Positions 16,170-39,782 of a stretch of 40,411 nucleotides of DNA are shown here, piece by piece. Origin of the DNA: Catajapyx aquilonaris (lineage: Eukaryota); assembly GCA_000934665.2 (NCBI GenBank), contig JYFJ02003539.1, positions 1-40,411 on the forward strand, given 5' to 3'. Position 1 is the stretch's first letter; the number at the start of each line of letters is the position of its first letter. The notes beneath the pieces are model-generated. The model had not been told where the DNA came from, searched no databases, and saw only the letters and a program-made list of their open reading frames with translations. The position numbers and the translations under genes are program-made.

Positions 16170-17860
16170 ATGGGCAGTCCTGTTCATTTGGGGTTGGTGT
16201 TGGAAGCTGTTGTGGCCAACACTCGTCTGCTTGAAGGGCTGATGGGTCGTTGGGACCAGATGGAGGCCAGGGTGATGGGGAGGCTGGAGGAGTGGATCAG
16301 AGGAAGATGGGGCCTGCAGCAGGGTGAGGAGCAGCACGGCACTTCCCTTACATTGAAATGAATACGTTTACTTTGCTTCAGATTCTGCTCGGAGTGACGA
16401 GTCGTCTCCACAACATGGCAGCTTCCAGAGCCATTGTAACGAATCCATGTTGTTGGCAAATTATGTCAAAGTAGAGGTGGATGAAGAGTGCGAGTTGGAT
16501 CAAACGATGAGTGAGACGCCTACAGCGCTGGATCCATTGTTGGTGGACAGTGGAACGCAGCAGTCTCTACATTGCCAAACTCAAATGCCTGCCGACGAGG
16601 TTATGTTTCGATCCATGTCTGTTGCTACCAAATTATAGTTTGTTCGATGATATAAGACGCACAGAATACGTATAAATTTTTTTCAAATTATTTCAGCAAG
16701 CACTACTGGCTGAATCATTAATGATATCATTTCCACCCTCAGGAGAACTCAAATATTAGCCTTGAAGAATCCACAGCTGAACACATGGATGAAAGCTGTC
16801 CTTTATCAAGACTTTCCGGCAGTATTGTTGCCCGAGTAGCAATCATGGGTAAAGATATATTCGGTCTTAACGGGCAGTTAAACCTGATTGTAGCAGAAAT
16901 GTTCTTATTCTGCTTTTTTTCCGTTATGATCAAGTGTGTACAGTACTCATTGAAAGTCATTTGCAAGGCTCAAACAAAACTTATGCACTAGACAATAAGC
17001 ATTAGGTCAGATTCACTGCCTTACATTCACATTTACTACATGCGTATTCCTCGAGAAGATTAGGTAATGGGCCAATTTTTCAGGTGGTGTTGATATGCCT
17101 GGACCAGGCACCACTGGAACATCCGAAGCAACCACACTCGAGGGCAGTTACGCAGTGGAGGTTTGTATTGAGTCCAAAATTCCAAAGAGAAATATTTTAA
17201 AAATACGATGTTAAAAATAATTACTGTGAATTGTTGTTTTCTTGCTTGCAGAGATCAAGAAAGAGACCTGCAAAAGAAAATTTTCCCACTACACCAAGCA
17301 TATCAGGTCTTGAAGCAAAGCAAGTGACAACCAACAAGGCTAGTGAAAAAAGGAAGTGCACAGTGGCTGGAACGAGGAATAGCAAGGAGGCCTTTGTGGC
17401 AGAGAATGAGTCGCAAGGAGAACTTTTTGATGGAAACGTGTCCGCAAAACCCATCACTGAACCACCTGAGAAGCCGTTCACTTCTGACTCGCACGATGCA
17501 CATGATTATTTTTGTGAGGTTTGCGGAAGGGTATTTAAGTATGGATTCCATTACGAGAAGCACAGAATGACTCACTCGGGTGTGAAGTCATTTCGTTGCA
17601 AACTCTGCAACAGTGAATTTGCAAATGCAAACACTCTAAAGCACCATGTATTGTCACACAAAGGTGTAAGACCATTTTGTTGTCACATATGTGACAAAAT
17701 GTTTACCCAAGAAGCTCAGTTGCAAAAACACATGGTGACACACACAAAATTAAATCATTTTGTTTGCGACGTATGTAAAAAAGGATTTCTTCAGGAAGCG
17801 CTCCTGAAATTTCACATGAGGACACATGAGCAAAAAGCCACTTTTCAAAAAGAGATTTAG
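16170..17860 (+). CDS. C2H2 zinc-finger protein, family copy 1 (N-terminal coiled-coil-like domain + 4 fingers)
   Basis: Exons 16170-16323, 16382-16599, 16743-16848, 17084-17160, 17252-17860 join in frame. N-terminus MGSPVHLGLVLEAVVANTRLLEGLMGRWDQMEARVMGRLEEW; 4 CxxC-x12-HxxxH fingers. Confidence 0.85.
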
Positions 17861-18192
17861 TCAATATTTACGGGACTTTCATCGTCTACAGTCAATCAGT
17901 GTAATTTTTGGAAAGAATCGACATTTCTACGTTGTATTGTCATTGCATTTTTAATGTCTCCCATTATTAGATAATGTCATGTACTGAGGTTACGATTTGT
18001 GAGCTGTTTAAAGGAAGTGGTTGGTCCTTCAACAATAAGTGGAAATAAATTACTTGTTCCAAATATTCTGTCAATTTTGATCATAAACGCTTTTTTATTG
18101 GGACTCAAAATACTGTGCACAGTGCTGCTGTCCGAAGTGGCCCAGACATGCAATCGGCCGCTTTTGCACAGCAGCGCAAGAACTGGCCAACG

Positions 18193-19211
18193 TCATTGCG
18201 ACGGAAGCATGTAAAGCAAGTATTTTCCCACAGCAATTCCCCACAAGTGTGACTTGTCCGTAATTACTCTTCTTGCCGGCCGATGTACAGATGCACCAGT
18301 TCCAGCAAGTGGGGCGACCTTTTCCCGGAAAACTGGTTGCGCTCGAAATCCAATGAAGAAGACAGCAAGTAAAGTTTGAAAATGACATTTATTAAGACCT
18401 CAGTATAAAAAAAGGGTACACACAGTGCAAAATCCAACTTTTTCACCTTAAGGAGGGAAATAAATTATTATAAATTACTATTATTATTATTATTATTATA
18501 ATAAATCTTTTTTTTTTCCCACCCTATCTGCCGCTATATTACACACACAGATCATCATACCTATCTGAAAATTGTGGGCTTGGCTCTGAGGCGTGGTGAT
18601 TGGCCTCCTGCGTTCGCTCCCTTTCACGTGCCGCCCTGCGGAGATTCACATCCTTATCGGGCGCTTCATCGAAACTTGAAACGGCTTGGGGCAGGTCAGT
18701 CTTGATTGGTGGGGGTCGGCGGCGAGACATTCCCTGTGATGGAGCTCTTCGGCACAGGAGGCTTCGTCTCCACTGGTTCTGTCTCCAGCTTATCCCAAGC
18801 TTCCCTGCACAGATTCGCAATCCCAATGATCAGTGTACATTGCTATTTTTTATGCCAACAGACCTTTTCAGCTGCCTGGCACAAATTCTTTCATCGGTGC
18901 GGAAGTGTGGGGTTTTCGGTACAGTCACGAGGTGTCTTCCATTTGTTTCCAGTAGGGTTTTTCAGGATCTTGTAGTTGACGGGATGAGCCTTAAAGTTAC
19001 ACCTGAAATGACGGAAAACAGATGTAGTTCAACAGAAGTAATGGCCTCGGTTGTTGCTCATAACAGCTGTTTCAATTCGCCAATGGACCAGTTGCTCCTT
19101 GGACAATGCGGTGGCCCATCTGGTCCTTATTGTTACCCATGTTCGGAGAGTGCGCAACAGTCAGCTGGGAGGACCATTTACGGTTGCTGCTGTCCTCCAT
19201 CGGGTTCGACC
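18193..19211 (-). pseudogene. TPX2: TPX2-like (targeting protein for Xklp2) unprocessed pseudogene fragment
   Basis: Minus-strand exon remnants give TPX2-type motifs in shifting frames: QLTVAHSPNM / VTIRTRWATALSKEQL / ELKQL, CNFKAHPVNYKILKNP, VTVPKTPHFRTDERI, LTCPKPFQ, PITTPQS, FRAQPV. Multiple frameshifts and stops. Splice sites remain at 19211, 19002, 18864, ~18804 and ~18561. Confidence 0.7.
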
Positions 19212-19658
19212 CTGCAAACAATAACATATTATAATTTCATAATATAAGCACCAAGAGCTAATAGTGATTAGCTCTTGTAAGTACTCAGCCTGTTTCATAT
19301 TATCTTGGCTTATATACTGTCAGAGCTTATGTCTCATCGTAATAAGCTAATGAGGTCATTATCCGCTTTGACACATTTCTTCATGGTCAATTGGTCATCC
19401 TTTTATTCACCGATTGCAGCCCATATATATTGGCATCTGTTCAACAAGTCCGCCAGAATATCAAGAGGACGCCATTGCCAGACAAAGGCGCCCTCCCTCA
19501 GCAGCTTGTTGCAACAGACACTCATTTGCATGAAGACCTTCGTGTCCATATCACGTGTGCCTCAGCAGCTCTCAACAGGACCAAGGTATCATAGTACACA
19601 TTTGGTAGCTGCTGGATGCCTGCTTTACACTATCCGAATTATTCCAGTGAACTGGACA

Positions 19659-22436: not shown

Positions 22437-22522
22437 AATCGATATTGATTCGTTAAAGAAATCGATATTGAATCGTCCACAAAAAAAATCGATATTTTTT
22501 TTTTCCTCCCACAAAATGGCGG
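22437..22522 (+). promoter_or_regulatory. Promoter of the G2E3/PHF7-like gene: three AATCGATATT (DRE/BEAF-like CGATA) motifs plus YY1-type CAAAATGGCGG
   Basis: AATCGATATT at 22437, 22460 and 22487; CAAAATGGCGG at 22512-22522; a 5'UTR donor cc|GTAAGT at 22612. Confidence 0.6.
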
Positions 22523-22866: not shown

Positions 22867-25764
22867 ATGGATCGAATGAAGTGCAGGTTCTGCCGAACGA
22901 GAGAGGAAGACGAGTTGCATTTGGGGCAGATGACATTCGGCGGAGACATAGCCGCACATTACTACTGCCTGGTGAGTTCTCCTACATTAAATATTAATAA
23001 ATATGTACATATGTTATAGCAGAACTCAGGTTCCCATACGTGCCAATGATTGTTGTGAAAAATTTTGCATTTTTCTACACCTAGCTTCTGTCTTCTGGAC
23101 TAAACCAAGGTGGAGAAGACGACGAAGGAATTTTAGGTTTTCTTCCCGAGGACATAAACAGGGAGTTGAGGAGAGGAATGCCCCTGGTTAGTTACTGCGT
23201 GTGCTTTTAATTGTGCTTGGAAACCACATTAGCAATGGTTGCTCTTCCAGAGATGCAGTTACTGCCACATGAACGGAGCCACACTGGGCTGCTTCGTCAA
23301 GACATGCAAGAAGAAGTTCCATCTTCCATGTGGATTGAAACGTGATTCGTTTCATGAATTTTTTGGGGAATTCAGGTACATTAGTGGTGCTTCCACTTCT
23401 TTTTAACATGTACTTCTCCTCACTAGTGAATGCGACGATTAATGCATATTTTCATTCTGTGCAGGACGTATTGTTCTGAGCATCGCCCTAAACAAAAGGT
23501 GAAGCTGATTGGTGAGCCAGAGGGGGAGTGCCCAATTTGTTGGGAAGAAGTTTCGACTACCGACCGGGTTCACACTCTTTGGGGAGCTTGCTGCAAGAAA
23601 GCATTTTACCACCGTGATTGTATGCAGGTGGGTGTTTCATGCTCTCGTTGCATTTGCATCCCGAATAAAAACTTCCATCAGTCACTCGTGAATAGCTGGT
23701 CGGAACTGTATTAGCAAATTCACATGTCTTTGAAACGATTATATTTATTAAATCGATCTGATTTATTTGCATTGTTAATATTTTAATGCTGAAATATCCT
23801 GCTTGTTTCGACACTTGTAGAGGCAGGCCAACAGCGCAGGGATACAGGCCTTCAAGTGCCCACTTTGCAACAATGTTGACCTTTTTCAAGCGGAGATGCA
23901 GAAGTTTGGCATCTACATACCTGAAAAGTAAGTTTGGATCCCGTTTAGTTTTGCGCTGATGTGACTAACCGTGGCCCCCGTTTTAGGGACGCATCGTGGG
24001 AACTTGAACCTAATGCATTCCAGGAACTCGCTGAACAGTATGGCAGCTGTGATGCGGCTGCATGCTTGTGCTCCAAGGGTCGGGGATTCAGTAAAGATGG
24101 GCCGTGAGTATGACTTGTTACGGACTAAGAAAATGTATAAAATAAAGCAATCCATTACCATTTCAGAGATTCTGTAAATTTTGAGGCTGCTTTTGGGCAG
24201 TGGACAGAGTGAAATTTATGAATATGAATAGTTTTGTTGTTTATGTCGGCAAATGGTATAGTGTGGACTGCATTTTCCATTGAAGTCGTCATCCTTTACC
24301 TGAGATTTTAACTTAGAAACAAGCCAGTATTTCGACAAAGTTGCCTTCCAGAAAGATTTGAGCTTTGAACCTCGTTATGTTTCAGGGACTGGAAAATTAT
24401 TCGGTGCCGTGGGTGTGGGTCTTCGGCTACCCACCTGAAATGTTGGCAGGAAGCTGGAGGTGTGGGGGAAAAATTTTATTGCCTGGAATGCAGGCCGCAT
24501 TTTTCAAAAGGTATGTAAGTGTTAGCCCATTAACAGGGCCCACTTTCCCTGGATGAAAAATGAAGCAGCACTGTCTATTGTAAGTAACAGCAACATTGCA
24601 CTCTATCTGTCACTTGATTATTTCACAGTGATGAAGCGCCGTCGAAGCGAGACAGTTCGAGGTGAGGGTGAGGATCGCCAACCATCAAGGGTCACCCAAT
24701 CGCCGCACAAGACCAGGTGCTTCTCATGTGAAGTTCCTCCTCAACAAAGGAGAGAGACCTCTTCTTCAACCTCAACTCGTCTTATGCAGCAAGACCAAGC
24801 AGAGGACTCGGATTCTGATGTTGAAATCGTGAATGTGACAATCGCACCAGTGACATTCAGTCGTACACCAGAGACATTCAGTCGTACACCAGAGACATTC
24901 AGTCGTACACCAGAGACATTCAGTGGTGCTCCCGAGACATTCAGTGGTGCTCCCGAGACATTCAGTCGTGCTCCAGAGAGGCCTGTAGTTGTCAACAGGA
25001 TTATAATAAACACACCAGGTCCTTATGAACCACGGACCCAGGCCACAACATCGCAGAAGAACGGGAAGGTAGAGTACATAGACCTTACAGGAGACGAAGA
25101 TGAGAAACCAAAGGTACTTGCACTCTTTACACTTGATATCACGCTTGATGTTTTAGACGTTTTTATTTTCACGTTACTTATTTTTGGTGGTGATGTATTA
25201 ACTTTTTTTTTTTTTTTGGTCATATTATGCACGATTTTCAATGCAAATTGTGTAGTACCTATGATTGTTTTTATTTTCAATCCTTGGTTGGTTGAATCCG
25301 CAGATGAGGAGAATCCACTGTACCTGAAGAGTAAGGAAGTTGCGTGGGATTATAAGAATTACCAGGGGTGTAGATCAAATATTTTTTTTAAGAAGCCAGT
25401 GGCAGGGAAGTACAGTGGATGTTCTGTGATTCAAACACTTATCTCGTTTACGTTGCCGATGTGACTGCACAGATATTCTTATTACTTGACATGTAAAGCT
25501 CACACATTTTCCCCTCCGACAGGAAATTTCAACATTCCAGCCGTCAAATTTGGGATTGGGTGTGGCGGCCACACCTCCGGTCGTTCACTCGGGGCTCATC
25601 GGTCCACCAGTTATGGGTAAATTACTAGATTGCATTCGATTCACTTGATCCTATTTGAACCCATTTGTAATTCGCTTGTTGTTTCAGATTTCTTTGCCCG
25701 CTTGCAGGCTCTGAAGGATTCCTTCCTGGAGCCTCCCCGTCCCGCCACAATAACCTTAGATTGA
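22867..25764 (+). CDS. G2E3/PHF7/pineapple-eye-like PHD/RING zinc-finger protein lacking the HECT domain
   Basis: Ten in-frame exons: 22867-22971, 23085-23186, 23251-23375, 23465-23627, 23821-23927, 23987-24103, 24386-24510, 24629-25113, 25523-25616, 25688-25764. Hallmarks: [84 protein letters not shown]. Confidence 0.92.
24853..24978 (+). repeat. Coding minisatellite, 6 x 21 bp (TFSRTPE x3, TFSGAPE x2, TFSRAPE)
   Basis: Unit ACATTCAGTCGTACACCAGAG and variants, in frame within exon 24629-25113. Confidence 0.95.
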
Positions 25765-27720
25765 AGCGTCCCCTTCTACGAGAATAGTACCTGAACAATC
25801 AACAGGCTCAACAATCAGCAATTGCGTACATGATGACATACATATGACTTTGATAGCAGTTTAGGTACTTATTGGTTTGATGATATGTAGGTTTTCATGA
25901 ACAATTGTATGCTAAACGAATAGTGTCATTTATTTACAGAAACATTTGTGAAGTTATATGCACCTGATCTAGCCATGCATAGTTACAACTTTCAAACTGT
26001 GACGTAGCCACATGAAAATGTGTGTTTAGCAAGCTGCCAAAATTTATTGCATTTCACAGCATGACTCTTGGGACGCAATTGCCCTGTTGTATGCTCCAGT
26101 TAAATTAAATAATTACAGTAAACATGGCGCATAATACAACTGTAAATAGCTCACGAAAGGATGGTTTTCTAGTTTTCGCACTTCTATTATTATTGTTCTG
26201 TGCTGTTTGGAAATGAGGGACATTTTATTAAATGTTATTTTTATTTCGAGAACATGTGTGAATCTGCCGGAACAAAGACTAGAATTATGCAGTCTGTAAT
26301 TCACCTGCTCAAAAGTTGTTTCCGAAGATAGTAGATTCAAATGTCATTTTCTTAGGATTTTCTTAGGATTTTCATATGGATGATACTGAACTACAAACAT
26401 ATGATTTCATGAGCATTTACCTTGTGATTCTTTCAATTATACTTTATTGTTTGTTTTTTTTTAACCTTGATAGAGCTGTAACATTTGTGATTTGTTATTC
26501 CTCTATGTCTTGAAACTCAGGAGTTTGCCAATCATACGCATTTTTCGAGGGTGCCACATGTGCAAAGAAATATGCAAAAAAAATTTGACCTGAGACTTTT
26601 TTACATTGTTACCTGCTTTCTTTCTTTTATATATTTTAAGAAGATTAGAATTAAGCCATAAGCATACTAAGTCAGATATTAGAAAAGGATGACGTTCGTC
26701 AAGGGAGATATGCATGTGTAAATTATTCGGATGTTTTTACGCAGTGGTACTGTTAATGTAGTATCGCATCAAAGAGGTGCAGCATTGGAGTGAAACGACA
26801 GGTTTTACTTTGATGGGCAATGCTGCAATTTATTATAATGATTAATTTGTATGTTTATCTCGTGTTACTTTCGTATTACTGATAGATCTCAGAGGTATAA
26901 GATTATATTGGGATATTTTGGCAATAATGTACTTACTGAGTTTTGCGAATCAGTAATATCATGCAAAATTAAGCACCTGATTTGTTTGGTGTCAGTTGCT
27001 ACAGTGTATATTCTTTGCACTCCCCGTGGCTTCTTGTAGAGTTATTCAGCCTTTCATGTGAGGCTATTCTGTCTTGGCAAATTCAGGTCTTGACAATTCG
27101 AGTTTGAATCATGTCACCTAAGTGGGAGAGAAAGTGGGAGATCCTTCGTTCCCGGAAGAGCCGTGATTTTGGCCAGAAACGACATTGCATTACAGAATAG
27201 CATGTGACGCACTGAACTTTTCAAGGAATCGTTGTCAAGGCTGCCAGGGTTAAAGCCATTTTGTGTCTTGTTCGTTGATATTTTCTTAAAACAACCCACG
27301 CCCACTGGGTCCAATTGTGGAGTACGTTTTGGTGTATGTAAGCAACTGTGCACAGAGTGAATGACACATGTGGGGGGGGGGGGGGGGGGNGGGAAACCCC
27401 TTGTAAAATGGAATGGATGAAATGAAATAAACTGAACTAGTTGTGCAGAAACTGGTAATTTTAAAGTGGGAATAATAACTTGACTAATTAATTTGATCTT
27501 TCCAACTCACAGATTTCAGCTAGTTGGCCTGTAAAAATAGTCTCCATTTCCGAGAAAGAACCTCCGGAAAACAAACCGTCCCATTTCGTCAAACTAGACG
27601 TGTGGATTAGAAGAGGTCGTGAACCAGCCGTTTACAACATGCTTATTACGTTCTAGGAGTAAAATGCATTTGCTGTAGTTGGTGACATGCATTTTGACGT
27701 GATGTGACACCCTTCTTTCT

Positions 27721-28930: not shown

Positions 28931-28990
<60 letters not shown>

Positions 28991-29381
28991 CCGGGTAGTG
29001 CTTGACAGAGGTATATAGCACGGACCTTTATTTATGTCTCGTACATATATTGGAACCTTTATACGTAACTCCCGGGCCCACGGGCAGGATGACAGGAGGG
29101 GATGTGCAAAGTGCAGTGCAATGTCTTTATGTGGCCATTTTTAGTGAACTCCCCCGGGTGGTTTAGTCTGTAGGAAATACCACCCGAGACGAAGCCTGAG
29201 GTGTCCCAATGAACTCTGCACGATTCTGATTTATATATGCCTTACCTTTTCCGGCTGACTTCCGCTTGCCTTTTGAGCGACTGTTGCTGCGCATGTTGTC
29301 CCATTTCTGTATACTGCCCTGAATACGTTCCGAATTTAATTTTACGTAATCGTCATATGTAATGCAATCCGATTTGACCAT
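27721..29381 (-). CDS. Hypothetical spliced orphan protein (~360 aa), no recognisable domain
   Basis: Exons 28850-28647, 28584-28452, 28391-28011 and 27949-27721 have canonical GT-AG signals, ~60 bp introns and mutually consistent phases. Candidate first exon 29381-29246 (aag|GTAAGG) fits the phase, but the 5' end is uncertain. Confidence 0.6.
28932..28990. repeat. (AAT)n microsatellite
   Basis: About 19 perfect AAT units in the putative first intron of the orphan gene. Confidence 0.95.
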
Positions 29382-29937
29382 TGTTTGTACTTATTGCGAA
29401 TATGCTAATTTGTTTTTTTGCAAACTAGATCTCGGACAGCCCCAGGGCGAAGCAGGTTGGTCGTATTCGCCACAAACGGGGGCGTCCGATCTCATGGAAA
29501 GCCCGAATGCTACTGGAAATAAGTTGACCTTGACAACAATACGCTCATTGTTGGGACGATTGTTTGCTTTTTTTTGTTTACATATATGCCGGCTGTACGT
29601 AACTGGGGTAACCATGTTGTACAATTATTGACAGGATTGTTCTCAAGTGTTGCTGTCCATTCGGTTCGATTAGTCTTTGTTGTTGTAAGTGGATAATTGC
29701 TTTTTTTTTAAAAAAAAATCATTGTTGCTTACATGATGTTCAAAATGTCCCGCTCTTTTCAGACAGCGATGTGAGCGCTCCCTCGGAACAGTTCCGTCCT
29801 GTCAGCCGCATCAACGCGCCCAAGATGGCGACCGTCACAAATTGAGACGTTCGAAGGCCACTCTTTTTCTTCACGTTTCAAAGCGGTTGGTTTGGCCCTT
29901 ACAACCTTTTTGGAAGGAGGAGGAGGAGGCACACACC

Positions 29938-32738
29938 ATGGCATCATCAGTCACCTTGGACATGTTGTTCGAAGCAACCCTGTACAACAGGAGGCTTCTG
30001 GAAGGACTGGTCGCACGATGGGACGCCTGGGAAGAGAAGGCCATGGCCAAGCTGGAAGGATGGCATCGCGGCTCTCGGGAGGACGGAACAGCAGGTCGGG
30101 AGGACGGTAAGGAATGGGAACAATTATTAAAAGACATGCTCCCCCCGGACATCAAACGAGAGGCCCTCCGCAAATGTATACCAAACTATCCGCTGCATTA
30201 CATTTTGCAGTACTTCTGCGAAACTGTCACGTTGAACAAACAACGGGGTTGCATTCACTGGTTCCAAGCGGCAGCGGAACCCATTCTTCGCACACCCTGC
30301 TTCAATTATTGCGCCATTTAAAGTACCGCGATGGCATTACCATGGCAACAACGGAACGGGTTGCCATGGCGGCGACACTTATTGATCACATCGCCATGGC
30401 AACAGGCCGTGTTTCGTTGTTGCCACGGCGATGGGCTCACCAAGCGTAGCCGTGGCAACCGAACCGGGGAGGGGGGCAAATAGGTGACGACGGTTTGACA
30501 ACAGGTTGTACGCAGGCTGATTATTATTAAAGCGCATGTATTACAATTGATGGTGAAGTTTCGGGGCAATGAGATTGCACCAGCCGAAATCACCGTTTCA
30601 TTAGCGCACACGTTGAATGGTCTCCTGATGATCCGTTAGGAGCTGGCGGATCTGTAATTTCGGGATTCACTGTCGTTCTGTGGATTTTGCGAGTTACGTG
30701 TTTGCGTCCTCTTTCTGTTTCAGAGGCTGCTTCCAGGAAGCTTCTTTCCGGCATGTTCGTTTCGGTCGACATGAAGGATGAATTCTTCGAGCCGATTGTT
30801 ACCATCAAGGTGGAACAGGACCCCTCGGAATCGGAGGCGGATAAGACGCAGGTTAGAGTGCTGCAGTGCTCTAGGTGGCGGAAGACAATTCTATTAATAA
30901 GAGCATAATATAGCGCAACAATTTTTGTGTTTGGATCATGATCTGATTGGTTACACTGTTGGCAACATATGTCGTAATGTGTAGAAAATTCTGAACTAAA
31001 ATCAACAATATCTTGGCATACCATGTACTGTACTGTATTTTATTCGGCTTTACAGGGGAGCACGGACGATGACCTGGCAGCGGAGACAGCCCAAAACATC
31101 AGTGCAATATCCGACATTTTATGGCAAAGATCTACGGGTAATTGGAAGCTGGGTAGACGTAATTATACCCCCTGCAGTTTAAGGACTCATCACTTGTATT
31201 AGACTTTTAATGGTTTGAGTCGAAAGGGTCAGTTATTTTAAAATTCATGCCTGACGTATAGTTGCAATCAAAGTTAATTGATGAGGGTGTTACTGGTTGA
31301 GAAATCAGATGTTAAAAATCCTGTTCGTAGCCCAGTCTGGTGCGTAAAGAAGTTTCATATTGTCATTGTTTCCGCAGGCAGAGGAGCAGCCTGCAGGCCT
31401 ACACATCCGGTTGGTGGAGTTCACCCGTCGGAGGAAGTCCTTGGTATCTCTTCGATTCACGAGAGAGCCCACATTCAGGGAACGAAATGCGGAAGCAATT
31501 TGAAACCAAAGGTACAGAAGGCATGACATTAGTGACGAACACAACTGGAATGCGCGTTAGTTAATCTTGTTGATGGAGGATAGGATTTATTAATTCCTTT
31601 TAATACGAGCTTCAAATTTTGCTCTTGCGTAAGAAAGCATATAGGTTTTTATTTTAAATCCTAGGAGCAATGACAACTATTAAGCAAAATAATTGTAAAG
31701 CGCATTAATAGCACCAGTATTAAATAACGGAAAGTAGTTAGCCTGAGATTTGTCAAATGACCAGTGAACTAAACTAGTTATGTACTGGTCAATTGTTGTA
31801 AGTGGATACTTTCAAACCAGTATATTGTTGACATTTATTAGCATGAGTTCGTGTTATGACTTACTCAGTAATTTACATTCGTAATGATTTAGTAATCCTT
31901 TTTAAATAGTGCTTTAATGCATGCAGGCCTCTACTTCTGGAATCTCGGGGAGCAATAAGCCGAGGATAGTTGAGATAACAACATCAGCAGCAGGTGGTGT
32001 GTCGTGTGACCCGACTGGTGACGCAAGCGGAGCAGCGACCACGGGGGGAAAACAAGTTGTAAGCATGATACTCAGATCTTAACTGATCCGAACAAGCGAT
32101 AAACTACAGTCTCGGCTGAAGTTGCACAGAAGGATGCAGATGTAGCAATTGCAACAATGACCCTCTGCAACATACCTAAGATTTTAGTGACATCACACCA
32201 TGTGCTTGTTGTTGCAACTTTTAGCTTCATGTCACTGCCTAATTTTCATGAAATCTCACAGGGTGCTGCGTGTGAAGATGCGGAAGACTGCAATTTCCAT
32301 TTTCGTGAGAGTGAGACTGAAGACTCGAGTGATAAAGAGTGTGGGACTTCTGCTGGTTTGGCCATCGGACGCAGCTTGAGTCTAACGGGAAAGCTGTACC
32401 GGTGCGAGTTATGTCCGTACCAGTCGTCAAGGAAGGCGACGTTCATCAGGCACCAAAACGTCCATTCGGGTGATAGGCCGTACGTTTGCGTCATTTGCGG
32501 AAAAAGGTTTGCCTTAAAGGCCAACATGCAAGCGCACCACAAGACCGTCCACGTCGAAGCGAAGCCTTACTCCTGCGACATGTGTGACAAGAAATTCAAT
32601 TGGTTACCCAGGCTGGAGCAGCATAGGAGGATCCACACGGGAGAGAGGCCGTTCCCTTGCGAACTATGTACAAAATCATTCACCGCCCGTTCCGCTTGGA
32701 GTCGACACATGAGGCTTCACGCTGTAGGATGCACTTAA
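29938..32738 (+). CDS. C2H2 zinc-finger protein, family copy 2 (N-terminal domain + 4 fingers)
   Basis: Exons 29938-30106, 30724-30851, 31056-31137, 31378-31511, 31927-32058, 32262-32738 join in frame. N-terminus MASSVTLDMLFEATLYNRRLLEGLVARWDAWEEKAMAKLEGW; fingers with SGDRP and TGERP linkers. Confidence 0.85.
30336..30459. promoter_or_regulatory. Cluster of five RFX X-box-like palindromes
   Basis: ATTACCATGGCAAC (30336), GTTGCCATGGCGGC (30360), ATCGCCATGGCAAC (30390), GTTGCCACGGCGAT (30419), GTAGCCGTGGCAAC (30446), all close to the consensus GTTGCCATGGCAAC. Confidence 0.6.
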
Positions 32739-33486: not shown

Positions 33487-35361
33487 ATGGCTGATGTGAC
33501 TATGGAGTCGTTGATGGAAGTGTCGCTTCACAACAAGGGTCTTCTGGAATGGTTGGTCTGTCGTATGCGTCTGTTGGAGGAGAAGATGATGGCCAGGGAA
33601 GGTATACATGCAATGGGAAATATTAATAAGGAAAGGTCATATGATATCGGAATGATTGTCTGTTTCAGATGCTGTATCCAGCAACCTGCTTCCCGAAGAA
33701 GTTGCGTCCTCCAGTGCGTCCAGTGGATGCAACGAGGCTGTTGAGGACGTGAAGGTGAAAGAGGAATGGGCATCAGAGGAGGTGAGCTGTATCGTCAGTG
33801 ATGTGTAGGGAAAACAAGCCAGTTGTTGACAGTAAATAATCAACCATATTTACTTGCAAGGCCGCCCACAATGTCTGAAAATGTTAAATGAAAGTCTGTG
33901 CCGCCGCTATGTTTCAAGATATGCTTTCCTTTTTTATTGTTCAGGGGATGTGGAATGAAGATATGGAAGCAGAGACTGCCAGCCTCTGTCCTACTGAATC
34001 AAATTACGTGAATGCAGGTATGACGCGCATTGTCATTTATAATTGAAAGATATTGCGCTGACAATAACAATTCAAATTGTTATCATTGTTGCATTCGTGA
34101 TGTAATTTCCATATTGGATGAGTGCTATGGTTGCACTTAAATGAATATTCTTCCTTGGAACTGTTTAGCAACCATTCCCACTGTAGCATTCTCCCTTTTT
34201 TGCACAGATGGAGTCGAAGCTTCCTCATGTGATCTACCGGTCAATGGGCAGTTCCAATCACAACGAATCGGAGGACTGCCTACACTTCAAGAGGGAACCT
34301 ATCCGGAGGAAATGGCACTTGAGAGCATATTTGTGACTGAGGTGTGGTTAACGTTTTTTTTTTTTTTGTGGGATGAATTTAGTGTTAGTAAAGTGAAACC
34401 TGAATGAAAATTTACAGTGACCTACCAGGTTATGCAATATTCATTTGTCCACTGTGTCACTCTCGTACGAATGCAATGCAGCTAAGTTCATAATAAACAG
34501 TCCAATTGTTGACTTCTTTACGTATTGATTGTATCCACTAATTTTTGTCAGCTTTTTTTGCCATCTGACTGGTATGAAAAGATTGTTTCAGAGAGTGCTA
34601 ATGATCTGTTATTTCCTCACAGGCCAGTACTTCCGGCGCACTGGAGAACAATATGACAATGGCAGGTGGGGAATTGCCATCAGAGACATGCCTTCCATCT
34701 CGTAATTCATCGTGGGTCTCTGGTGGACGAGTAAAAAGGAGAAAGCAAGCTGCGGTAAGTCGCCTGATTAGAAGTGATAAGAGCTCTATTACCTAAGAGT
34801 GTATGGTGGAATTTCGCAGTTGTTAACGAAGCTGTTTGAATGCATCTTGCAGGGTATTGAATCAGAATATGTAAAGGACCATGAGGTGTCCTGGTCCACA
34901 AGTGATGCTTCTAATGGTGGATTAAGCCAGAAAAGGAAGCGAAAGCAACAAGTGAAGGTACGTTTCTCTAAATGTATGTCCAGGTGATTTTTTAAGGAAG
35001 GAACAGTCACATTTCTGTTACACGTTCACATGGTAAGTGCACTCCCGTTTTCTATAATTATTTTTAGAACTGCAGTGAAATGCAAGCAGTTGACGCCAAC
35101 AATGAGAATGTCAACGACGAGGGCTTTCCTGAAATGAACCTTGGGACTTCTGCTGATTTCATTGCGGAAGTAAGTTCGAAGTGGGGAGGAAAGAAGATTC
35201 ATCGATGCCAGTTATGTCCATACCAGACTGAATTTAAGCAGAACTTGACACGCCATAAAATTGTACACAGTGGCGTACAGCCACACAGTTGTGACGTGTG
35301 CAAAAGGAAGTTTGGACACAAGAGCAGCTTACAAAGACACTACGAGGCTCTTCATTCTTGA
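33487..35361 (+). CDS. C2H2 zinc-finger protein, family copy 3 (shortened N-terminal domain; 2 intact fingers, further fingers eroded after a stop)
   Basis: Exons 33487-33601, 33669-33781, 33945-34017, 34208-34341, 34623-34754, 34853-34957, ~35068-35361. N-terminus MADVTMESLMEVSLHNKGLLEWLVCRMRLLEE. TGA follows finger 2, and degenerate finger remnants continue to ~35620. Confidence 0.75.
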
Positions 35362-36438
35362 AGTGGGTCCATATGCTCGTGTCACATGTGCAATAAAATG
35401 TTTGTTAGAAATGGATCAATTGAAGGAGCGCAAAGGTGATCCACACTCACCAGATGTTCATGTAAAGTCTGCAAAAAAAAATCATTAATTACATGCACGG
35501 ATTTTACTTGTCACATGAACATTCACACTCACGAAAGAAAGTTACACTTCTGCGCACACTGTCCCGAAACCTTTTATGACAAGTACAAAATGACTGTAGA
35601 AGTCACACACTTCTGAAAAGCCCCGCTGGCCTATCATGTTATTATTTTGCTTCCTTTCTTTGCGTTCATGTAATATATGGAAATATTATGATCTCGCAGT
35701 CGCAGAGTTGTCAATTTATCTGAAAATTTAACTTATATACATGTCAGGTGTACACACAAAAACAATTGTATTGCGACACAGCGTGTACCTGACAGTGTCG
35801 ATACAAAGAAAATTCTACCTAATGTTGCAACGACAATTGCTCAATAATAAACTAGGTTTATGTGTGTATGTCATGTATCGTACGTTGCCTAACACGGCCT
35901 GACAGCTTAGAGTTAATTTCATGAGTTCATGTAACAATATTGGAGTAATAATGTTTCCTTAATTTTTACTGTCATAACCAATATTTTTAAATGTTTAAAT
36001 GTTCATATAGGAAGCCACAATGGTTTTTTTTTCAGCATGGATTTAGTAGTCAAAAAAATGCCTTCTTAGATGAGCAGGTAAACTCCTTAACGACCTAATA
36101 ATGTTAAATAATTACATAATAAATGTTAAACACCGCATTAAATGCATTATTTTAATTGATCGTTTTATTTTTCAGCGGTATGAACGCACCCTCAGAACAG
36201 ATATTTGGGCAGCCGCATGAAAGCGCCCTGGAATAAATAATTCCAAGATGGCGTCTCAATAATAACGGGAAAAAGTTGGCCGATCCTTCTTTGGAGAGAT
36301 TCTAACCGTTCTAGGAGTTCTAATCCGCCCCCCGTCTGGATCCCATCGGAAGGGGCCGCAGCCGACGTGTGCAACGTAATCATTCGAACAACCTTAGAAG
36401 GCTGAGGACTAGGCAGAGAGGACTACTTTCAACAAGCC

Positions 36439-38555
36439 ATGTCTCCAGTCACCCTGGAGTCCCTGATGGAAGTGTCTCTAGGCAACAGGAGGCTTCTGGA
36501 AGGGTTGATGTCACGAATGGACTGGTGCCAGGAGGCCATCGGGAGGGTGGAGGGGTGGATGAAGAAGGAGAAGCGTGGAAGGGAAGGTACGCATGACGCA
36601 TATGAACAAGGGTGTGGATCGGATAACAATGCGTCTTGCATTTTCAGAAGATACTTCAGGCCAGTCCCTTCCCACCGAGTGTGTTTCTGTCAACACTGGA
36701 GACGCAGTCAGCGACTCAATGCCTGCGTATAACGCTGAAAAAGAAATAAAAGTGGAGGAAGAGGATTGGGAATCGCAGGAGACGTGGAATAGAGACCTAG
36801 AAGCAGAGGCAGCCAAAAACTTCAGTGAAATTGGTGGCGGTGGCGGCAATTCAGAAGTAGGACGTTCAGCAAACGCAAGTATGACATCAGCTGATATTGC
36901 CAAAGTCCGTTCGTATGGGATTCAAGGATCGCACCTGCTTCAAGAAGGAACGCTGCAGCAGGATACGGGCATGGAGAGTCAGTTATGGAGCCAGGTATTG
37001 TCATTACTTGATTGTGCATTCAATATGTTGATGTCATTTAGGACATGGTCTGAGAGGCAGGTAGTGTTTCTATGAGGAAGCCACAGAGGCAATCAAATAA
37101 TTGCAGGATGAATAAGACAATCATTGTGCCAATGGTTATCTCCACGTATTCATGTGGGATAAGTGCCTTATTTTATGAGAAGTTTTTATGCAGTAAGCCT
37201 GTACCTTTATTATATTTTGGATCAAAATCACCATTTTTGTCTGTTAAAGACGGGTAAATTATGGATGCTTCATGTCTGATTATATTATACCAATTGCGAC
37301 TGATCTGTAATTTTTTTCCACAGGCCTCCACTTCCGCAACCTGGGAGAACACCGAGTCCATCAAAGTTGAGGCATTTCCATTAGAGGCAAGTGTTTCATA
37401 TTATAATTTTGCACATGGCATTGATAAACGAGTAAAAATAAGGAATCAACTTTTTGTGCATGAAGAAATGGCGATTGACTAGAAATCTGATTGAATATTG
37501 CAGGTTTGTGAACCTGAAACGATGGAAAGCAGTGACCTGGCCTTGCCCGATAATGACTCCAGTAATGAGAATGTCCCATTGACCCACTCGGACGATGATC
37601 CTGATCATGACTCAAGCCCGGAAAAAAACCAACGTCGACTGAGGAAGGTATGTTTATCTTAGGATTATGAAGGTATTGAAGGTAAAGAATAGTACACAAG
37701 ACAATGCATAATTATGTTTCAAGCTTAAATAGCATGCTATGAAATGTTCATATGAATTTTTTAATTATTTTAGTTTGAAAGGAAATTTTTGTGTTTTGAG
37801 CATGATTTATTAAAACTTTGTAGAATCTTTGCTCCGTGCTAATCTCTTATTGCGACGAACTTAATACTTAGAAATGCTGATTCCCACGAGCATTACTTTT
37901 TCATTATTTGTAGCGCAAGAAACTAATGAAAGGTCCAACTGAACCAGAAAATCCGACTGACACTGACGGCTTTTCTACTGACCACCATGGGACTTCTTCG
38001 GATACAGTGAAAGGAAAGGAGCAGCCAGGAAATAAATGGTTCAAGTGTCGTCTGTGCTCATATAAGACTCAAGACAGCGGACACTTCAAAAGGCATAAAA
38101 TTGTTCACAGAAGTGACGAAAAGCCCTTTGGTTGCACTGCCTGTGAAAAGAGATTTACATCGAACCGCTACTTGCAGGTGCATTATCAGACTATCCATAT
38201 TGGTGTTACCCCATTTTCTTGTGATGTGTGTGATAAAAAGTTCTGTGAGAAGAGGAAGTTGGAGGAGCACAAGATAACCCACACTGGCAAGAAGCAGCAT
38301 TCATGCGAAATATGCCAAAAATCTTTTACCCTTCCAAGACATTTGAATTATCACATGCAACTTCACACCGGGGAAAGAGAGTTACACACTTGCACCCATT
38401 GCGGCAAAGAGTTCGGGTACAAATCCCACCTGGTTGAACATGTGCGGATTCACACTGGCGAGAAACCGTATTGTTGCAACATTTGCCAGAAGAAGTATGC
38501 TCATCGTGCTACCTTTATTTCTCACAAGAAAACCCACACGGGAGGAGGGTCGTAG
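36439..38555 (+). CDS. C2H2 zinc-finger protein, family copy 4 (N-terminal domain + 6 fingers)
   Basis: Exons 36439-36586, 36648-36994, 37324-37386 (GC donor), 37504-37647, 37914-38555. N-terminus MSPVTLESLMEVSLGNRRLLEGLMSRMDWCQEAIGRVEGW; six fingers with TGKKQ, TGERE and TGEKP linkers. Confidence 0.88.
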
Positions 38556-39126
38556 AGTTGGCTCCCAACATTTTCTGCATTAACTCTCATGTCAATGCAT
38601 TTCAGTGCAACGTGCGTCATACGGACGATTAGTGAGTACTTTTCATACTCCCAACTTCGGATTTCATGTGTGTTAAATAATTAAAATTGAGTTCAGCGAG
38701 TCAGTGGATTGAGACCATTAGTTTCCTACACTTTCAAGTGCTGAGTGTATATTTGTAAAATAAATTGTTGCTTCAGGAACATGAAAATTGTTCTCTCATT
38801 ATCTGACTTGCTTCCCCAGCTAAGTATAGACAGTGGGCATTTAATTGTATTTCCAACACTGGACAGTCCATCGGAAGCACCGGTACGAGAGCACCCTACG
38901 AGCTGTTTTGCAAGCAGCGATAGGAACACGCCCTCTAAAACCCAATCCAAGATGGCGACCGTCTCTTTCCTTTGAGAAGACTGTTCCTCTGAAGCATTTC
39001 CTTCCATTTTCACCTCCTTTGGTGTCCTGCCTTCCTTTTTTCAACTCGATTCTGATCCAGCATCATCTGGACCATCAGTCGAACAACCTGATCCGGCCTG
39101 AGGACTCCAGAGGTGCACAATAAGCC

Positions 39127-39782
39127 ATGTCTCCAGTCACCCTGGAGTCTCTGATGGAAGTGTCTCTAGGCAACAGGAGGCTTCTGGAAGGGTTGATGTC
39201 ACGAATGGACTGGTGCCAGGAGGCCATCGGGAGGGTGGAGGGGTGGATGAAGAAGGAGAAGCGTGGAAGGGAAGGTACGCATGACGCATATGAACAAGGG
39301 TGTGCGTCGGATATCAATGCGTCCTGCATTCCAGAAGTTGCTTCAGGCCAGTCCCTTCCCACCGAGTTTGTTTCTGTAAACACTGGAGATGAAAGCAGCG
39401 AGTCAATGCCTGCCTGTAACATTGAAGAGGATATAAAACTGGAGGAGGAGGATTGGGGATCGCAGCAGGTGAGGAGAGGGCACATGAAGGATCAAGTGCT
39501 GCTAGACTTTTAAAAACTCAAAAAGTGTCAGTAACCTTGTTAGTCAATTAAATTAAATGTGTTCTTACTTTTTAGGGCAGATGTTATAGAGACTTGGACG
39601 CAGAGACAGCCAAAAACATTAGTGAAATTGCTGCCCTTGTCGGCAATGTTGATTCGGAAGCTACATCACCTGATCTTCCAGTCATTGGAGAAGTTCATTC
39701 CTGTGGGATTCAGGGACCGCAATTGCTTCAGGAGGGAACATTGAAGCCAGATATGGGCATGGAGAGTGAGTCTTGGAGCCAG
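39127..39782 (+). CDS. ZNF family copy 5, 5' part (finger exon expected beyond the window)
   Basis: Exons 39127-39274, 39335-39468, 39576-39782. The N-terminal protein sequence is identical to copy 4, and the linkers are homologous (IKLEEEDW, DLDAETAKNISEI, LLQEGTL, MESESWSQ). Confidence 0.8.

What the first reader, a model, noticed from the sequence alone, without database searches (positions are those of the whole stretch)
16170..39782. Tandem C2H2-ZNF family with an unrecognised N-terminal coiled-coil (probably trimeric) domain: a KRAB/ZAD-analogous system
Seen: five same-strand paralogs (ATG 16170, 29938, 33487, 36439, 39127) each begin with their own exon, always closed by a phase-1 intron. 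The consensus is approximately V[TH][LM]xx[LV]hE[AV]xhxNxxLLExL[MV]xR[WM]xxh[EQ]...[RK]hExW (the tail is missing in copy 3). It is followed by acidic linker exons and one terminal finger exon (4, 4, 2+eroded and 6 fingers; copy 5 runs off the window). In copy 4 the heptad register is L6/L9/S13/N16/L20/L23/M27/C30/I34/V37, placing an invariant Asn at core position d. RWDQME, RWDAWE, RMRLLE and RMDWCQ fall at g-a-b-c-d-e. Established: N@d layers and the R-h-x-x-h-E motif characterise parallel trimeric coiled coils (for example LINE-1 ORF1p). I do not recognise the domain as KRAB, SCAN, BTB or the four-Cys ZAD. Inference: a lineage-specific effector/oligomerisation domain that lets diverse finger arrays homo- or hetero-trimerise, possibly a TE-surveillance or architectural family, and possibly co-opted from a retroelement ORF1 coil.
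Basis: partly seen in the sequence, partly recalled or inferred. Interest (0 to 1): 0.85.

Follow-up and report, generated by a model that had tools for sequence, protein, structure and literature searches.

The report
Zinc-finger gene family with new N-terminal helix
Five neighbouring zinc-finger genes of an unplaced animal each start with their own small exon encoding a conserved, unnamed 30-45-residue helix that computer models pack into a three-stranded bundle, so it is probably a lineage-specific self-association or partner-docking module, which is interesting but untested.

Summary
Five same-strand C2H2 zinc-finger genes each open with a private exon closed by a phase-1 intron (5 of 5). 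Spliced models of the four complete copies give open frames of 387, 373, 321 and 447 aa. A profile of the five exon-1 peptides finds exactly these five places in the window (71-102 bits; next best 4.8).

Exon 1 is the best-conserved part of the proteins. It matches no Pfam family at E<=1 and no protein among 1.84 billion representatives. Profile comparison with KRAB and SCAN gives no signal.

AlphaFold2 predicts one long helix (pLDDT 93.6 and 88.2). A three-copy ESMFold2 model gives a parallel, in-register bundle (0.74 against 0.01 for controls).

- the heptad pattern is not above shuffled controls;
- the strict R-h-x-x-h-E motif is met in 1 of 5 copies;
- a one-residue indel breaks the register in the tail;
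- no dimer or tetramer model could be run.

No RNA evidence could be obtained. The host genome could not be searched and the taxon is unplaced. Nothing found here supports TE surveillance or a LINE ORF1 origin.

Verdict: a real, apparently undescribed ZNF-associated helical domain. Self-association is likely, its stoichiometry is open, and family size is unknown.

The parts
16170..16323 (+). Copy 1, exon 1 (51 codons + 1 nt): N-terminal helix module
   Evidence: ATG and donor AGG|GTGAGG read; phase 1; profile hit of 84.0 bits; AF2 helix 7-47, pLDDT 88.2
16382..17860 (+). Copy 1, exons 2-5 (16382-16599, 16743-16848, 17084-17160, 17252-17860): acidic linker and 4-finger terminal exon; VKVE at 16465-16476
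   Evidence: Spliced ORF of 387 aa, all introns GT-AG; 4 C2H2 fingers
29938..30106 (+). Copy 2, exon 1 (56 codons + 1 nt)
   Evidence: Donor ACG|GTAAGG; profile hit of 95.0 bits
30724..32738 (+). Copy 2, exons 2-6 (30724-30851, 31056-31137, 31378-31511, 31927-32058, 32262-32738): linker and 4 fingers; IKVE at 30804-30815
   Evidence: Spliced ORF of 373 aa; 4 fingers
33487..33601 (+). Copy 3, exon 1 (38 codons + 1 nt), lacks the C-terminal tail of the helix
   Evidence: Donor AAG|GTATAC; profile hit of 71.2 bits covering profile positions 1-42
33669..35361 (+). Copy 3, exons 2-7 (33669-33781, 33945-34017, 34208-34341, 34623-34754, 34853-34957, 35068-35361): linker, two basic clusters and 2 fingers before a stop; VKEE at 33755-33766
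   Evidence: Spliced ORF of 321 aa; 2 fingers; finger-like remnants in other frames at 35362-35620
36439..36586 (+). Copy 4, exon 1 (49 codons + 1 nt): reference copy of the helix module
   Evidence: Donor AAG|GTACGC; profile hit of 101.6 bits; AF2 helix 6-48, pLDDT 93.6; three-copy model 0.74 against 0.01 for the best control
36648..38555 (+). Copy 4, exons 2-5 (36648-36994, 37324-37386, 37504-37647, 37914-38555): acidic linker (IKVE at 36746-36757), basic cluster RRLRK|RKK across the last intron, 6 fingers
   Evidence: Spliced ORF of 447 aa; exon 3 donor is GC (GAG|GCAAGT); 6 fingers; linker exon 2 has no Pfam family at E<=0.01
39127..39274 (+). Copy 5, exon 1 (49 codons + 1 nt), protein identical to copy 4
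   Evidence: 147 of 148 nt identical to copy 4, 0 nonsynonymous changes; profile hit of 101.2 bits
39335..39782 (+). Copy 5, exon 2 (39335 to about 39468; IKLE at 39433-39444), an intron, then an exon ending at 39782; the rest of the gene lies beyond the window
   Evidence: Read; 85% and 80% nt identity to the matching parts of copy 4

Best explanation
These are paralogous C2H2 zinc-finger transcription-factor genes of a small, lineage-restricted family. The family mark is a private first coding exon encoding a single helix of about 30-45 residues.

The helix most likely acts as a self-association module. It would form a parallel, in-register coiled-coil-like bundle with the invariant Asn16 in a core layer, so that family members bind DNA as homo- or hetero-oligomers. 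A trimer is the favoured state but is unproven.

The rest of the protein is:
- a poorly conserved acidic linker with a positionally conserved psi-K-x-E motif (a SUMO-consensus look-alike);
- basic nuclear-localisation-like clusters in copies 1, 3 and 4;
- a terminal exon with 2-6 fingers that gives each paralog its DNA specificity.

Shown here: the exon structure, conservation and constraint of exon 1, the absence of any match to a named family, the helix prediction and the bundle model.

Inferred: splicing in vivo, oligomerisation, stoichiometry, nuclear and transcriptional function, and SUMOylation.
For: - Gene structure: exon 1 is phase 1 in 5 of 5 copies, and 4 of 4 complete copies give complete spliced ORFs.
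- Constraint across paralogs: the first 40 alignment columns have mean pairwise identity 0.43, against 0.01-0.23 in the linker and 0.00-0.38 in the finger region, where the copies differ in finger number. dN/dS of the 29-codon core is 0.28-0.76 among diverged copies.
- Constraint in the youngest pair (copies 4 and 5): exon 1 has 0 nonsynonymous differences over 114.7 sites, against 15 over 104.3 sites in exon 2 (Fisher p = 8e-6).
- DNA level: the exon-1 core is the only repeat shared by copies other than the recent pair 4 and 5.
- Fold: AF2 predicts a single helix at residues 6-48, pLDDT 93.6 (copy 4), and at 7-47, pLDDT 88.2 (copy 1, the most divergent copy).
- Bundle model: ESMFold2 with three copies scored 0.74 in 3 of 3 runs, against 0.01 for the best of 3 controls. 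Partner pLDDT was 86 and contact agreement at least 97%. The mark was reached by 21 of 30 proteins solved as pairs of one chain and by 0 of 23 solved as single chains. That calibration used two copies, not three.
- Geometry of the model: the lowest-error contacts are in register (16-16, 23-23, 20-20, 9-9, 13-13, 27-27, 30-30), and the interface holds all a/d positions 6, 9, 13, 16, 20, 23, 27, 30, 34, 37 and 41.
- Asn at d is invariant (5 of 5). Asn d-layers are described as helping to define the trimeric state and the register in parallel trimers (PMC5940361, passages).
Against: - The heptad signal is not above composition-matched shuffles.
- The published R(g)-h(a: I,L,V,M)-x-x-h(d: L,I,V)-E(e) motif is met only by copy 3, that is 1 of 5 copies. 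[quoted passage not shown]
- A one-residue indel after E32 separates copies 4 and 5 from copies 1-3, so the register cannot be continuous through the tail in all copies. Copy 3 lacks the tail.
- Copy 4 has four Gly within the helix.
- Invariant E11 (f), E21 (b) and R26 (g), and hydrophobic residues at e, g and b, are more than a plain homomeric coil needs.
- The complex tool warns that models often lay chains side by side and that its eukaryote passes may come from memory. Its controls were unrelated proteins, not other hydrophobic helices.
- Only one stoichiometry was modelled.
- There is no RNA evidence for the gene models.
Confidence: 0.55

Rival explanations
1. The helix is mainly a cofactor-docking effector motif. 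This would be functionally KRAB- or FiNZ-like: it recruits a co-repressor or co-activator, for example by packing against a partner's coiled coil, rather than acting as a homo-oligomeriser.
For: - Invariant residues include positions that face outward in a coiled coil: E11 (f), E21 (b) and R26 (g).
- Hydrophobic residues cover a, d, e, g and b14, so more than half of the helix surface wants burial.
- The architecture, with a private N-terminal exon, a linker and a single finger exon, parallels the FiNZ-ZNF gene structure, which Wells et al. liken to that of KRAB-ZNFs (PMC10547256, passages).
- A positionally conserved psi-K-x-E in an acidic stretch is present in 5 of 5 copies, which fits a repression context. 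The link between this motif and SUMO is recalled, not tested.
Against: - No candidate partner is known and none could be tested.
- The three-copy model passes its controls, which a pure docking motif need not do.
- There is no sequence similarity to KRAB.
- The two readings are not exclusive.
Confidence: 0.25
2. The helix does self-associate, but as a dimer, a tetramer or a higher bundle rather than a trimer.
For: - The hydrophobic seam is widened, with g-a and d-e pairs L19-L20, L23-M24, L9-M10, A33-I34 and W40-M41.
- Designed peptides with expanded hydrophobic surfaces switch between tetramers and hexamers (bioRxiv 10.1101/503698, passages).
- The strict trimerisation motif is present in only 1 of 5 copies.
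- Only a three-copy job was run, so no comparison exists.
Against: - Invariant Asn at d (5 of 5 copies). Asn d-layers are described as helping to define the trimeric state (PMC5940361, passages).
- The three-copy model is confident for all three chains (pLDDT 86).
Confidence: 0.25
3. Exon 1 is not part of the mature ZNF proteins. It could be a separate short ORF or leader, or the copies could be decaying pseudogenes, so that the 'domain' has no protein function.
For: - No RNA evidence could be obtained.
- Copy 3 has a shortened exon 1 and a truncated finger array with eroded remnants.
- The near-identity of exon 1 plus intron 1 between copies 4 and 5 (147 of 148 nt and 55 of 60 nt) could reflect gene conversion rather than selection. 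Synonymous differences of 1 in 32 against 5 in 28 give p = 0.09.
Against: - Phase-1 donors in 5 of 5 copies pair with acceptors that restore one long ORF in 4 of 4 complete copies.
- dN/dS is below 1 in all nine comparisons that involve a diverged copy.
- Exon 1 is conserved better than the finger region.
Confidence: 0.05
4. The helix was co-opted from the coiled coil of a retroelement ORF1 protein.
For: Only shared generic features: Asn at d and a loose R-h-x-x-h-E, both of which human L1 ORF1p also carries (PMC5940361, passages).
Against: - The profile finds no protein at E<=0.001 among 1.84 billion representatives.
- In the Protein Data Bank sequences it finds only one chance-level hit, 3cit_A, a bacterial sensor kinase, at E = 0.098. 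No ORF1p chain appears at E<=10.
- Coiled-coil features converge easily, so likeness is not descent.
Confidence: 0.03

Closest known systems
FiNZ-ZNF genes of cyprinid fish (Wells et al. 2023, PMC10547256; abstract and passages read)
   Same: A short, lineage-restricted N-terminal module without similarity to known domains. It is encoded by its own exon upstream of a single exon holding the finger array, in locally duplicated genes. The region after it is acidic.
   Different: - FiNZ is described as 28 aa, Glu-rich and unique to cyprinids, in genes with two coding exons and long arrays (about 700 genes in zebrafish).
- Here the genes have 5-7 coding exons and 2-6 fingers, and only five copies were seen.
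- The host's DDX55 is at most 50% identical to any protein found, fish included.
- No FiNZ sequence model could be retrieved, so no direct sequence comparison was made.
KRAB-ZNF genes of tetrapods (Pfam PF01352)
   Same: An N-terminal effector exon followed by a finger exon; clustered paralogs; the domain is better conserved than the linker.
   Different: - No sequence or profile similarity: Pfam gives 0 hits at E<=1, and hhalign probability is 0.9% against 15 KRAB segments.
- KRAB works by docking a corepressor (TRIM28) rather than by homo-oligomerising.
- Arrays here are much shorter.
ZAD-ZNF proteins of arthropods (Pfam PF07776; PMC7913770, abstract seen in the listing)
   Same: An N-terminal self-association domain on C2H2 arrays, with lineage-specific expansion. 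ZADs form homodimers and heterodimerise only between close paralogs.
   Different: ZAD is a zinc-coordinating four-Cys fold that dimerises. Exon 1 here has 0-1 Cys, is a single helix, and is modelled as a three-helix parallel bundle.
Short parallel trimeric coiled coils with Asn d-layers and R-h-x-x-h-E motifs (for example L1 ORF1p, PMC5940361; cortexillin variants, PMC3653964)
   Same: Invariant Asn at d, Arg at g (5 of 5 copies), and Glu at e in 3 of 5 copies. The parallel, in-register three-helix model has these residues at the interface.
   Different: - The strict motif is met in 1 of 5 copies.
- Only about four continuous heptads are shared by all copies.
- The heptad pattern is not above shuffles.
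- No sequence homology.

Membership tests
KRAB (PF01352) | Significant match to the KRAB profile | tested here: not met
   hmmscan of all five exon-1 peptides against Pfam-A gave 0 families at E<=1. hhalign of A2 against 15 KRAB segments cut from the hits gave probability 0.9%. The segments were picked with a recalled short A-box motif.
SCAN (PF02023) | Significant match to the SCAN profile, a helical dimerisation domain of about 80-90 aa | tested here: not met
   Pfam gave 0 families at E<=1. hhalign against 6 SCAN segments gave probability 0.2% (segments picked with a recalled short motif). Exon 1 encodes only 38-56 aa.
ZAD (PF07776) | Four conserved zinc-binding cysteines, and a profile match | tested here: not met
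   Exon-1 peptides hold 0, 0, 1, 1 and 1 Cys. Pfam gave 0 families at E<=1.
BTB/POZ (PF00651) | A fold of about 100 aa, and a profile match | tested here: not met
   Pfam gave 0 families at E<=1. The module is a single helix of 41-43 residues.
FiNZ | Two coding exons: FiNZ exon plus finger exon | tested here: not met
   The gene models have 5, 6, 7 and 5 coding exons. The FiNZ gene structure is taken from PMC10547256, main-text passages and the legend of Supplemental Figure 3.
FiNZ | Restricted to cyprinid fish | tested here: not met
   The DDX55 exon of the window is at most 50% identical to any of the best 120 hits listed, of 228 at E<=1e-20, including teleost proteins at 45-46%. The host is therefore not a cyprinid.
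FiNZ | Sequence match to the FiNZ consensus or profile | not testable with these tools
   No FiNZ consensus or HMM could be read. The supplement PDF holds only the figure legend, and the data and code archives were not opened.
Parallel trimeric coiled coil (structural class) | Continuous heptad repeat with hydrophobic a/d positions | tested here: inconclusive
   6-7 of 8 a/d positions are hydrophobic in the 29-residue core, but 35-77% of shuffles reach this. Periodicity at 3.5 residues was reached by 3466 of 20000 shuffles. An indel after E32 shifts the tail.
Parallel trimeric coiled coil (structural class) | Asn at a d-layer | tested here: met
   N16 (copy 4 numbering) is invariant in 5 of 5 copies and falls at d in the only register that places L6, L9, L20, L23, M27 and C30 in the core. 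The 16-16 contact has the lowest error in the model.
Parallel trimeric coiled coil (structural class) | R(g)-h(a: I,L,V,M)-x-x-h(d: L,I,V)-E(e) trimerisation motif | tested here: inconclusive
   Met strictly only by copy 3 (RMRLLE). Copies 1 and 2 carry W or M at the h positions. Copies 4 and 5 have C at d and Q at e (definition from PMC3653964).
Parallel trimeric coiled coil (structural class) | Measured trimeric mass or a solved structure | not testable with these tools
   Only a model exists: ESMFold2 with three copies scored 0.74 against 0.01 for the best control. No dimer or tetramer job was possible because the cap is one job.
LINE-1 ORF1p coiled coil (homology) | Significant sequence or profile match to ORF1 proteins | tested here: not met
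   0 proteins at E<=0.001 among 1.84 billion representatives. In the Protein Data Bank sequences the only hit at E<=10 is 3cit_A, a bacterial sensor kinase, at E = 0.098.

The most novel reading that the evidence does not exclude
Exon 1 encodes a previously undescribed ZNF-associated trimerisation domain, specified by an Asn16 d-layer. Members of a lineage-specific family would then bind DNA as obligate homo- or hetero-trimers. This gives three finger arrays per complex, a valency known for heat-shock factors but not for C2H2 families. Mixing of paralogs would add combinatorial specificity, and the acidic, SUMO-motif linker would supply repression.
Probability: 0.2. Interest if true: 0.7.

Novelty: new variant of a known kind. 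Interest (0 to 1): 0.45.

Why it matters
C2H2 zinc-finger families repeatedly acquire lineage-specific N-terminal modules (KRAB, SCAN, ZAD, BTB, FiNZ). These modules decide how the proteins act, whether by corepressor recruitment or by pairing.

A new module unrelated in sequence would add an independent case of this recurrent invention. This one is a single conserved helix that is modelled to self-associate. If the trimer is real, it would be a new valency for this class of transcription factor.

The helix is short, so biophysics, tethering and interaction tests are easy to run. Its nearly invariant coding sequence in the youngest copies would allow family-wide knock-down. The value is limited for now because only five genes, no expression data and no taxon are in hand.

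Tried and rejected
- RNA support: the look-up of sequencing runs listed 5 runs with no RNA holder. No splice junction could be checked.
- Own genome: none is held, so family size outside the window is unknown.
- Word-indexed homologue search with the exon-1 alignment ('longer' lengths): 1211 candidates, none at E<=0.01.
- Finger-exon search: 6794 generic zinc-finger proteins, with 31-46% identity among the best 120 listed, none informative.
- DDX55 exon search for the taxon: the best hits reach only 49-50% identity and are spread over corals, insects, sharks and amphioxus. The host remains an unplaced animal whose proteome is not in the collection.
- ESM Atlas: best score 0.85, recognition 1714, below the tool's own trust levels, no family.
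- Foldseek against the PDB: 0 matches.
- VIA-align wide: only generic long helices at Z<=5.8, which says nothing for a single helix.
- Metagenome scan: 43 pattern matches, none a relative.
- Rfam on the window: 0 matches.
- Earlier findings of this scan: 4 look-ups, nothing.
- FiNZ identity was considered first and rejected on gene structure and host. The FiNZ consensus was not retrievable from the supplement PDF, and the data archives were not opened.
- Literature searches for a described ZNF-associated coiled-coil or novel N-terminal domain found nothing matching (24 and 7 papers, listings only). This covers only the held open-access library.
- A nuclear-export-signal reading of L6-x-x-L9-x-x-V12-x-L14 and an LxxLL or CoRNR-box reading of the LLEGL stretch were considered from memory. 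Both were dropped because no test supports them.

Full report
**What is in the window.** The window comes from an animal genome. It also carries:
- a DDX55 helicase gene on the minus strand (about 8.7-10.9 kb);
- a gene with a nucleoplasmin-like domain on the minus strand (PF17800, E = 2.9e-20);
- UMP synthase (about 19.5-21.9 kb; PF00215);
- a PHD/RING gene (about 22.8-25 kb).

No whole genome is held for this window. The DDX55 exon is at most 50% identical to any of the 120 best hits listed (of 228 at E<=1e-20), and these are spread over corals, insects, sharks and amphioxus. The host is therefore an unplaced animal whose proteome is not in the protein collections used here.

**The observation.** I read start codons, donors and acceptors from the DNA and checked the gene models by script. 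Exon 1 runs 16170-16323, 29938-30106, 33487-33601, 36439-36586 and 39127-39274.
- In 5 of 5 copies exon 1 is 3n+1 bases long and is followed by GT.
- Intron 1 is 58, 617, 67, 61 and 60 nt.
- The four complete copies give uninterrupted spliced ORFs of 387, 373, 321 and 447 aa, with 5, 6, 7 and 5 coding exons.
- Of their 19 introns, 18 are GT-AG and one is GC-AG.
- Finger counts are 4, 4, 2 and 6. Copy 3 stops after two fingers and has eroded finger remnants downstream.
- A regular-expression scan of all six frames finds C2H2 arrays only at these four places, each downstream of an exon-1 copy.
- A profile of the five exon-1 peptides run over the six-frame translation of the whole window finds only these five places, at 71.2-101.6 bits, with the next hit at 4.8 bits.

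One correction is needed: the cluster is interrupted, because UMPS and the PHD/RING gene lie between copy 1 and copies 2-5.

**Is exon 1 a constrained protein module?** Yes.
- In a MAFFT alignment of the four spliced proteins, the first 40 columns have mean pairwise identity 0.43. The linker has 0.01-0.23. The finger region has 0.00-0.38, where the copies differ in finger number and gaps lower the figure.
- At the DNA level, the exon-1 core (77-84 nt) is the only repeat shared by copies other than the recent pair 4 and 5.
- Nei-Gojobori dN/dS over the 29-codon core is 0.28-0.76 among diverged copies, with dS near saturation.
- In the youngest pair, copies 4 and 5, exon 1 differs at 1 of 148 nt, with 0 nonsynonymous changes over 114.7 sites. 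The first 44 codons of exon 2 carry 15 nonsynonymous changes over 104.3 sites (Fisher p = 8e-6).
- Synonymous differences in that pair are 1 of 32.3 sites against 5 of 27.7 (p = 0.09). Intron 1 is 55 of 60 identical, and the 300 nt upstream cannot be aligned. Gene conversion of the 5' end therefore cannot be excluded as a contributor.

**Is it a known domain?** Nothing found here says so.
- Pfam-A gives 0 families at E<=1 for all five peptides and none at E<=0.01 for two linker exons.
- The profile finds 0 proteins at E<=0.001 among 1.84 billion cluster representatives. This collection holds annotated animal proteomes, as the organism names show. A true family member would score about 70-100 bits, judging by the self-hits.
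- The word-indexed search was blank, as was the metagenome scan.
- Against Protein Data Bank sequences, the only hit at E<=10 is the C-terminal helix of a bacterial sensor kinase (3cit_A, E = 0.098), which is chance level.
- hhalign against ad hoc KRAB (15 segments) and SCAN (6 segments) alignments, cut from the hits, gives probabilities of 0.9% and 0.2%.
- The peptides carry 0-1 cysteines, so they cannot be the four-Cys ZAD.
- FiNZ was my first suspicion. It is described as a 28-aa, Glu-rich, cyprinid-only domain in genes with two coding exons (PMC10547256, abstract, main-text passages and the legend of Supplemental Figure 3). The gene structure and the host here do not fit. I could not retrieve a FiNZ sequence model, so there was no direct sequence comparison.
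- Two full-text searches for a described ZNF-associated coiled-coil or novel N-terminal domain returned nothing that fits (listings only).

**What does it fold into?** AlphaFold2 with the five-sequence alignment predicts one uninterrupted helix.
- Copy 4: residues 6-48, mean pLDDT 93.6.
- Copy 1, the most divergent copy: residues 7-47, pLDDT 88.2.

Structure searches with a single helix say nothing.

ESMFold2 scored 0.74 in 3 of 3 runs, against 0.01 for the best of 3 controls. Partner pLDDT was 86 and contact agreement at least 97%.
- The tool's mark was reached by 21 of 30 proteins solved as pairs of one chain and by 0 of 23 solved as single chains.
- The tool itself notes that its calibration used two copies, not three, and that eukaryote passes may come from memory.
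- The lowest-error contacts are in register (16-16, 23-23, 20-20, 9-9, 13-13, 27-27, 30-30).

This is a parallel, in-register three-helix bundle with the invariant Asn16 in a core layer. The model supports self-association. It does not show it, and it says nothing about trimer against dimer or tetramer.

**How strong is 'trimeric coiled coil'?** It is weaker than stated.
1. The 29-residue core is 52-55% hydrophobic. An a/d occupancy of 6-7 of 8 is therefore reached by 35-77% of shuffles of the same composition. The 3.5-residue periodicity of the column hydrophobicity is reached by 3466 of 20000 shuffles, and the strongest period is 5.
2. The published trimerisation motif is R(g)-h(a = I, L, V, M)-x-x-h(d = L, I, V)-E(e). 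[quoted passage not shown] Only copy 3 meets it strictly (1 of 5). Copies 1 and 2 have W or M at the h positions, and copies 4 and 5 have C at d and Q at e.
3. Copies 1-3 carry one more residue after E32 than copies 4 and 5, so the register cannot run unbroken through the tail in all copies. Copy 3 lacks the tail. The shared part is about four heptads.
4. Hydrophobic residues also sit at e (10, 24), g (12, 19) and b (14), and three invariant residues (E11, E21, R26) are at f, b and g. Designed peptides with expanded hydrophobic surfaces form tetramers and hexamers (bioRxiv 10.1101/503698, passages). Conserved outward-facing residues suggest a further partner.

In favour of a trimer stands the invariant Asn at d. 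Such layers are described as helping to define the trimeric state and the register of parallel trimers (PMC5940361, passages; the papers by Hartmann 2009 and Fletcher 2017 were seen only as references).

**Rest of the protein.**
- The linkers are acidic, with D+E at 0.16-0.20 against K+R at 0.08-0.10.
- They have no Pfam family at E<=0.01 in the two linker exons scanned (exon 2 of copies 1 and 4) and evolve almost neutrally in the young pair (pN/pS about 0.8).
- One short element is positionally conserved in exon 2 of 5 of 5 copies: VKVE, IKVE, VKEE, IKVE and IKLE, each followed by acidic residues. This has the form of the SUMO consensus psi-K-x-E in a negatively charged context. The link to SUMO is recalled, not tested. 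Such four-residue motifs are expected about 0.5 times per linker by chance (my rough estimate), so only the conserved position counts.
- Basic clusters precede the fingers in copy 3 (KRRK, KRKRK) and copy 4 (RRLRK|RKK across the last intron). Copy 1 has RSRKRPAKE at the start of its last exon. These look like nuclear localisation signals, which is an inference.

**Most likely mechanism.** The N-terminal helix brings family members together in a parallel bundle, as homo-oligomers or as mixed oligomers of paralogs. It may also present a conserved surface to a cofactor. The variable finger arrays give DNA specificity, and the acidic linker may modulate activity. I put self-association at 0.55, with a trimer specifically at about 0.2-0.3. 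A mainly cofactor-docking role gets 0.25, and a non-functional or non-spliced exon gets 0.05. These readings overlap in part.

- TE surveillance: arrays of 2-6 fingers are short compared with the TE-targeting families. Wells et al. counted only ORFs with five or more fingers (PMC10547256).
- Descent from a LINE ORF1 coil: there is no sequence link.

**Novelty and limits.** By every search available here, the module is an undescribed, sequence-unrelated example of a known kind of thing: a lineage-specific N-terminal module on C2H2 proteins. The open points are:
- expression and splicing (no RNA data);
- family size and taxonomic range (no genome);
- stoichiometry (one model only);
- function.

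The supplementary data archives of PMC10547256, which I did not open, may hold the FiNZ profile needed for a formal exclusion.

Noticed in passing
36430-36647 against 39118-39334: Between copies 4 and 5, exon 1 (147 of 148 nt) and intron 1 (55 of 60) are far more alike than exon 2 (85%) and the next coding part (80%). Similarity starts only 9 nt before the ATG, and the 300 nt upstream cannot be aligned. This points to gene conversion of the 5' end, to nucleotide-level constraint, or to both.
   Followed up: partly
39275-39334; 36648-36994 against 39335-39782: Intron 1 of copy 5 is 60 nt, in frame and free of stops, so retaining it would add 20 residues without breaking the ORF. Copy 4 reads straight through (WESQETWNRDLE) where copies 2, 3 and 5 have an intron, which suggests intron loss in copy 4.
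   Followed up: partly
37387-37392: The only non-GT donor in the four models is GAG|GCAAGT after copy 4's exon 3, a GC-AG intron.
   Followed up: no
35362-35620: Downstream of copy 3's stop there are finger-like remnants in other frames with broken spacing. Copy 3 also has the shortest exon 1. It may be decaying or may be a short isoform-like paralog.
   Followed up: partly
16465-16476, 30804-30815, 33755-33766, 36746-36757, 39433-39444: A positionally conserved psi-K-x-E followed by acidic residues sits in exon 2 of all five copies (SUMO-consensus form; the link to SUMO is recalled). Copy 4 has a second IKVE in exon 3.
   Followed up: partly
24824-24991: A 21-nt tandem repeat (six overlapping 63-nt windows at 21-nt spacing, that is about eight units, 68-100% identity to the reference) lies inside the long ORF 24526-25464 downstream of the PHD/RING exons. 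It encodes repeated T/APETFSR heptapeptides.
   Followed up: no
1746, 4852, 5187, 6259, 27390: Five single N bases. In the translations, four of them fall within runs of Gly or Pro codons, which looks like an assembly artefact in homopolymer runs.
   Followed up: no
26000-29900: The roughly 4-kb stretch between the PHD/RING gene and copy 2 holds overlapping ORFs of 100-150 aa on both strands. None of the five tested has a Pfam family. There is also a long codon-repeat tract near 28.95-29.0 kb that reads as poly-Ile on the minus strand. The nature of this stretch is unknown.
   Followed up: partly
36454-36516 (profile positions 6-26): The only Protein Data Bank hit of the profile is the last helix of a bacterial sensor histidine kinase domain (3cit_A, E = 0.098), which shares an N-x-x-L-L-E-x-L-V-x-R stretch. 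The match is chance level and is recorded only as a curiosity.
   Followed up: no
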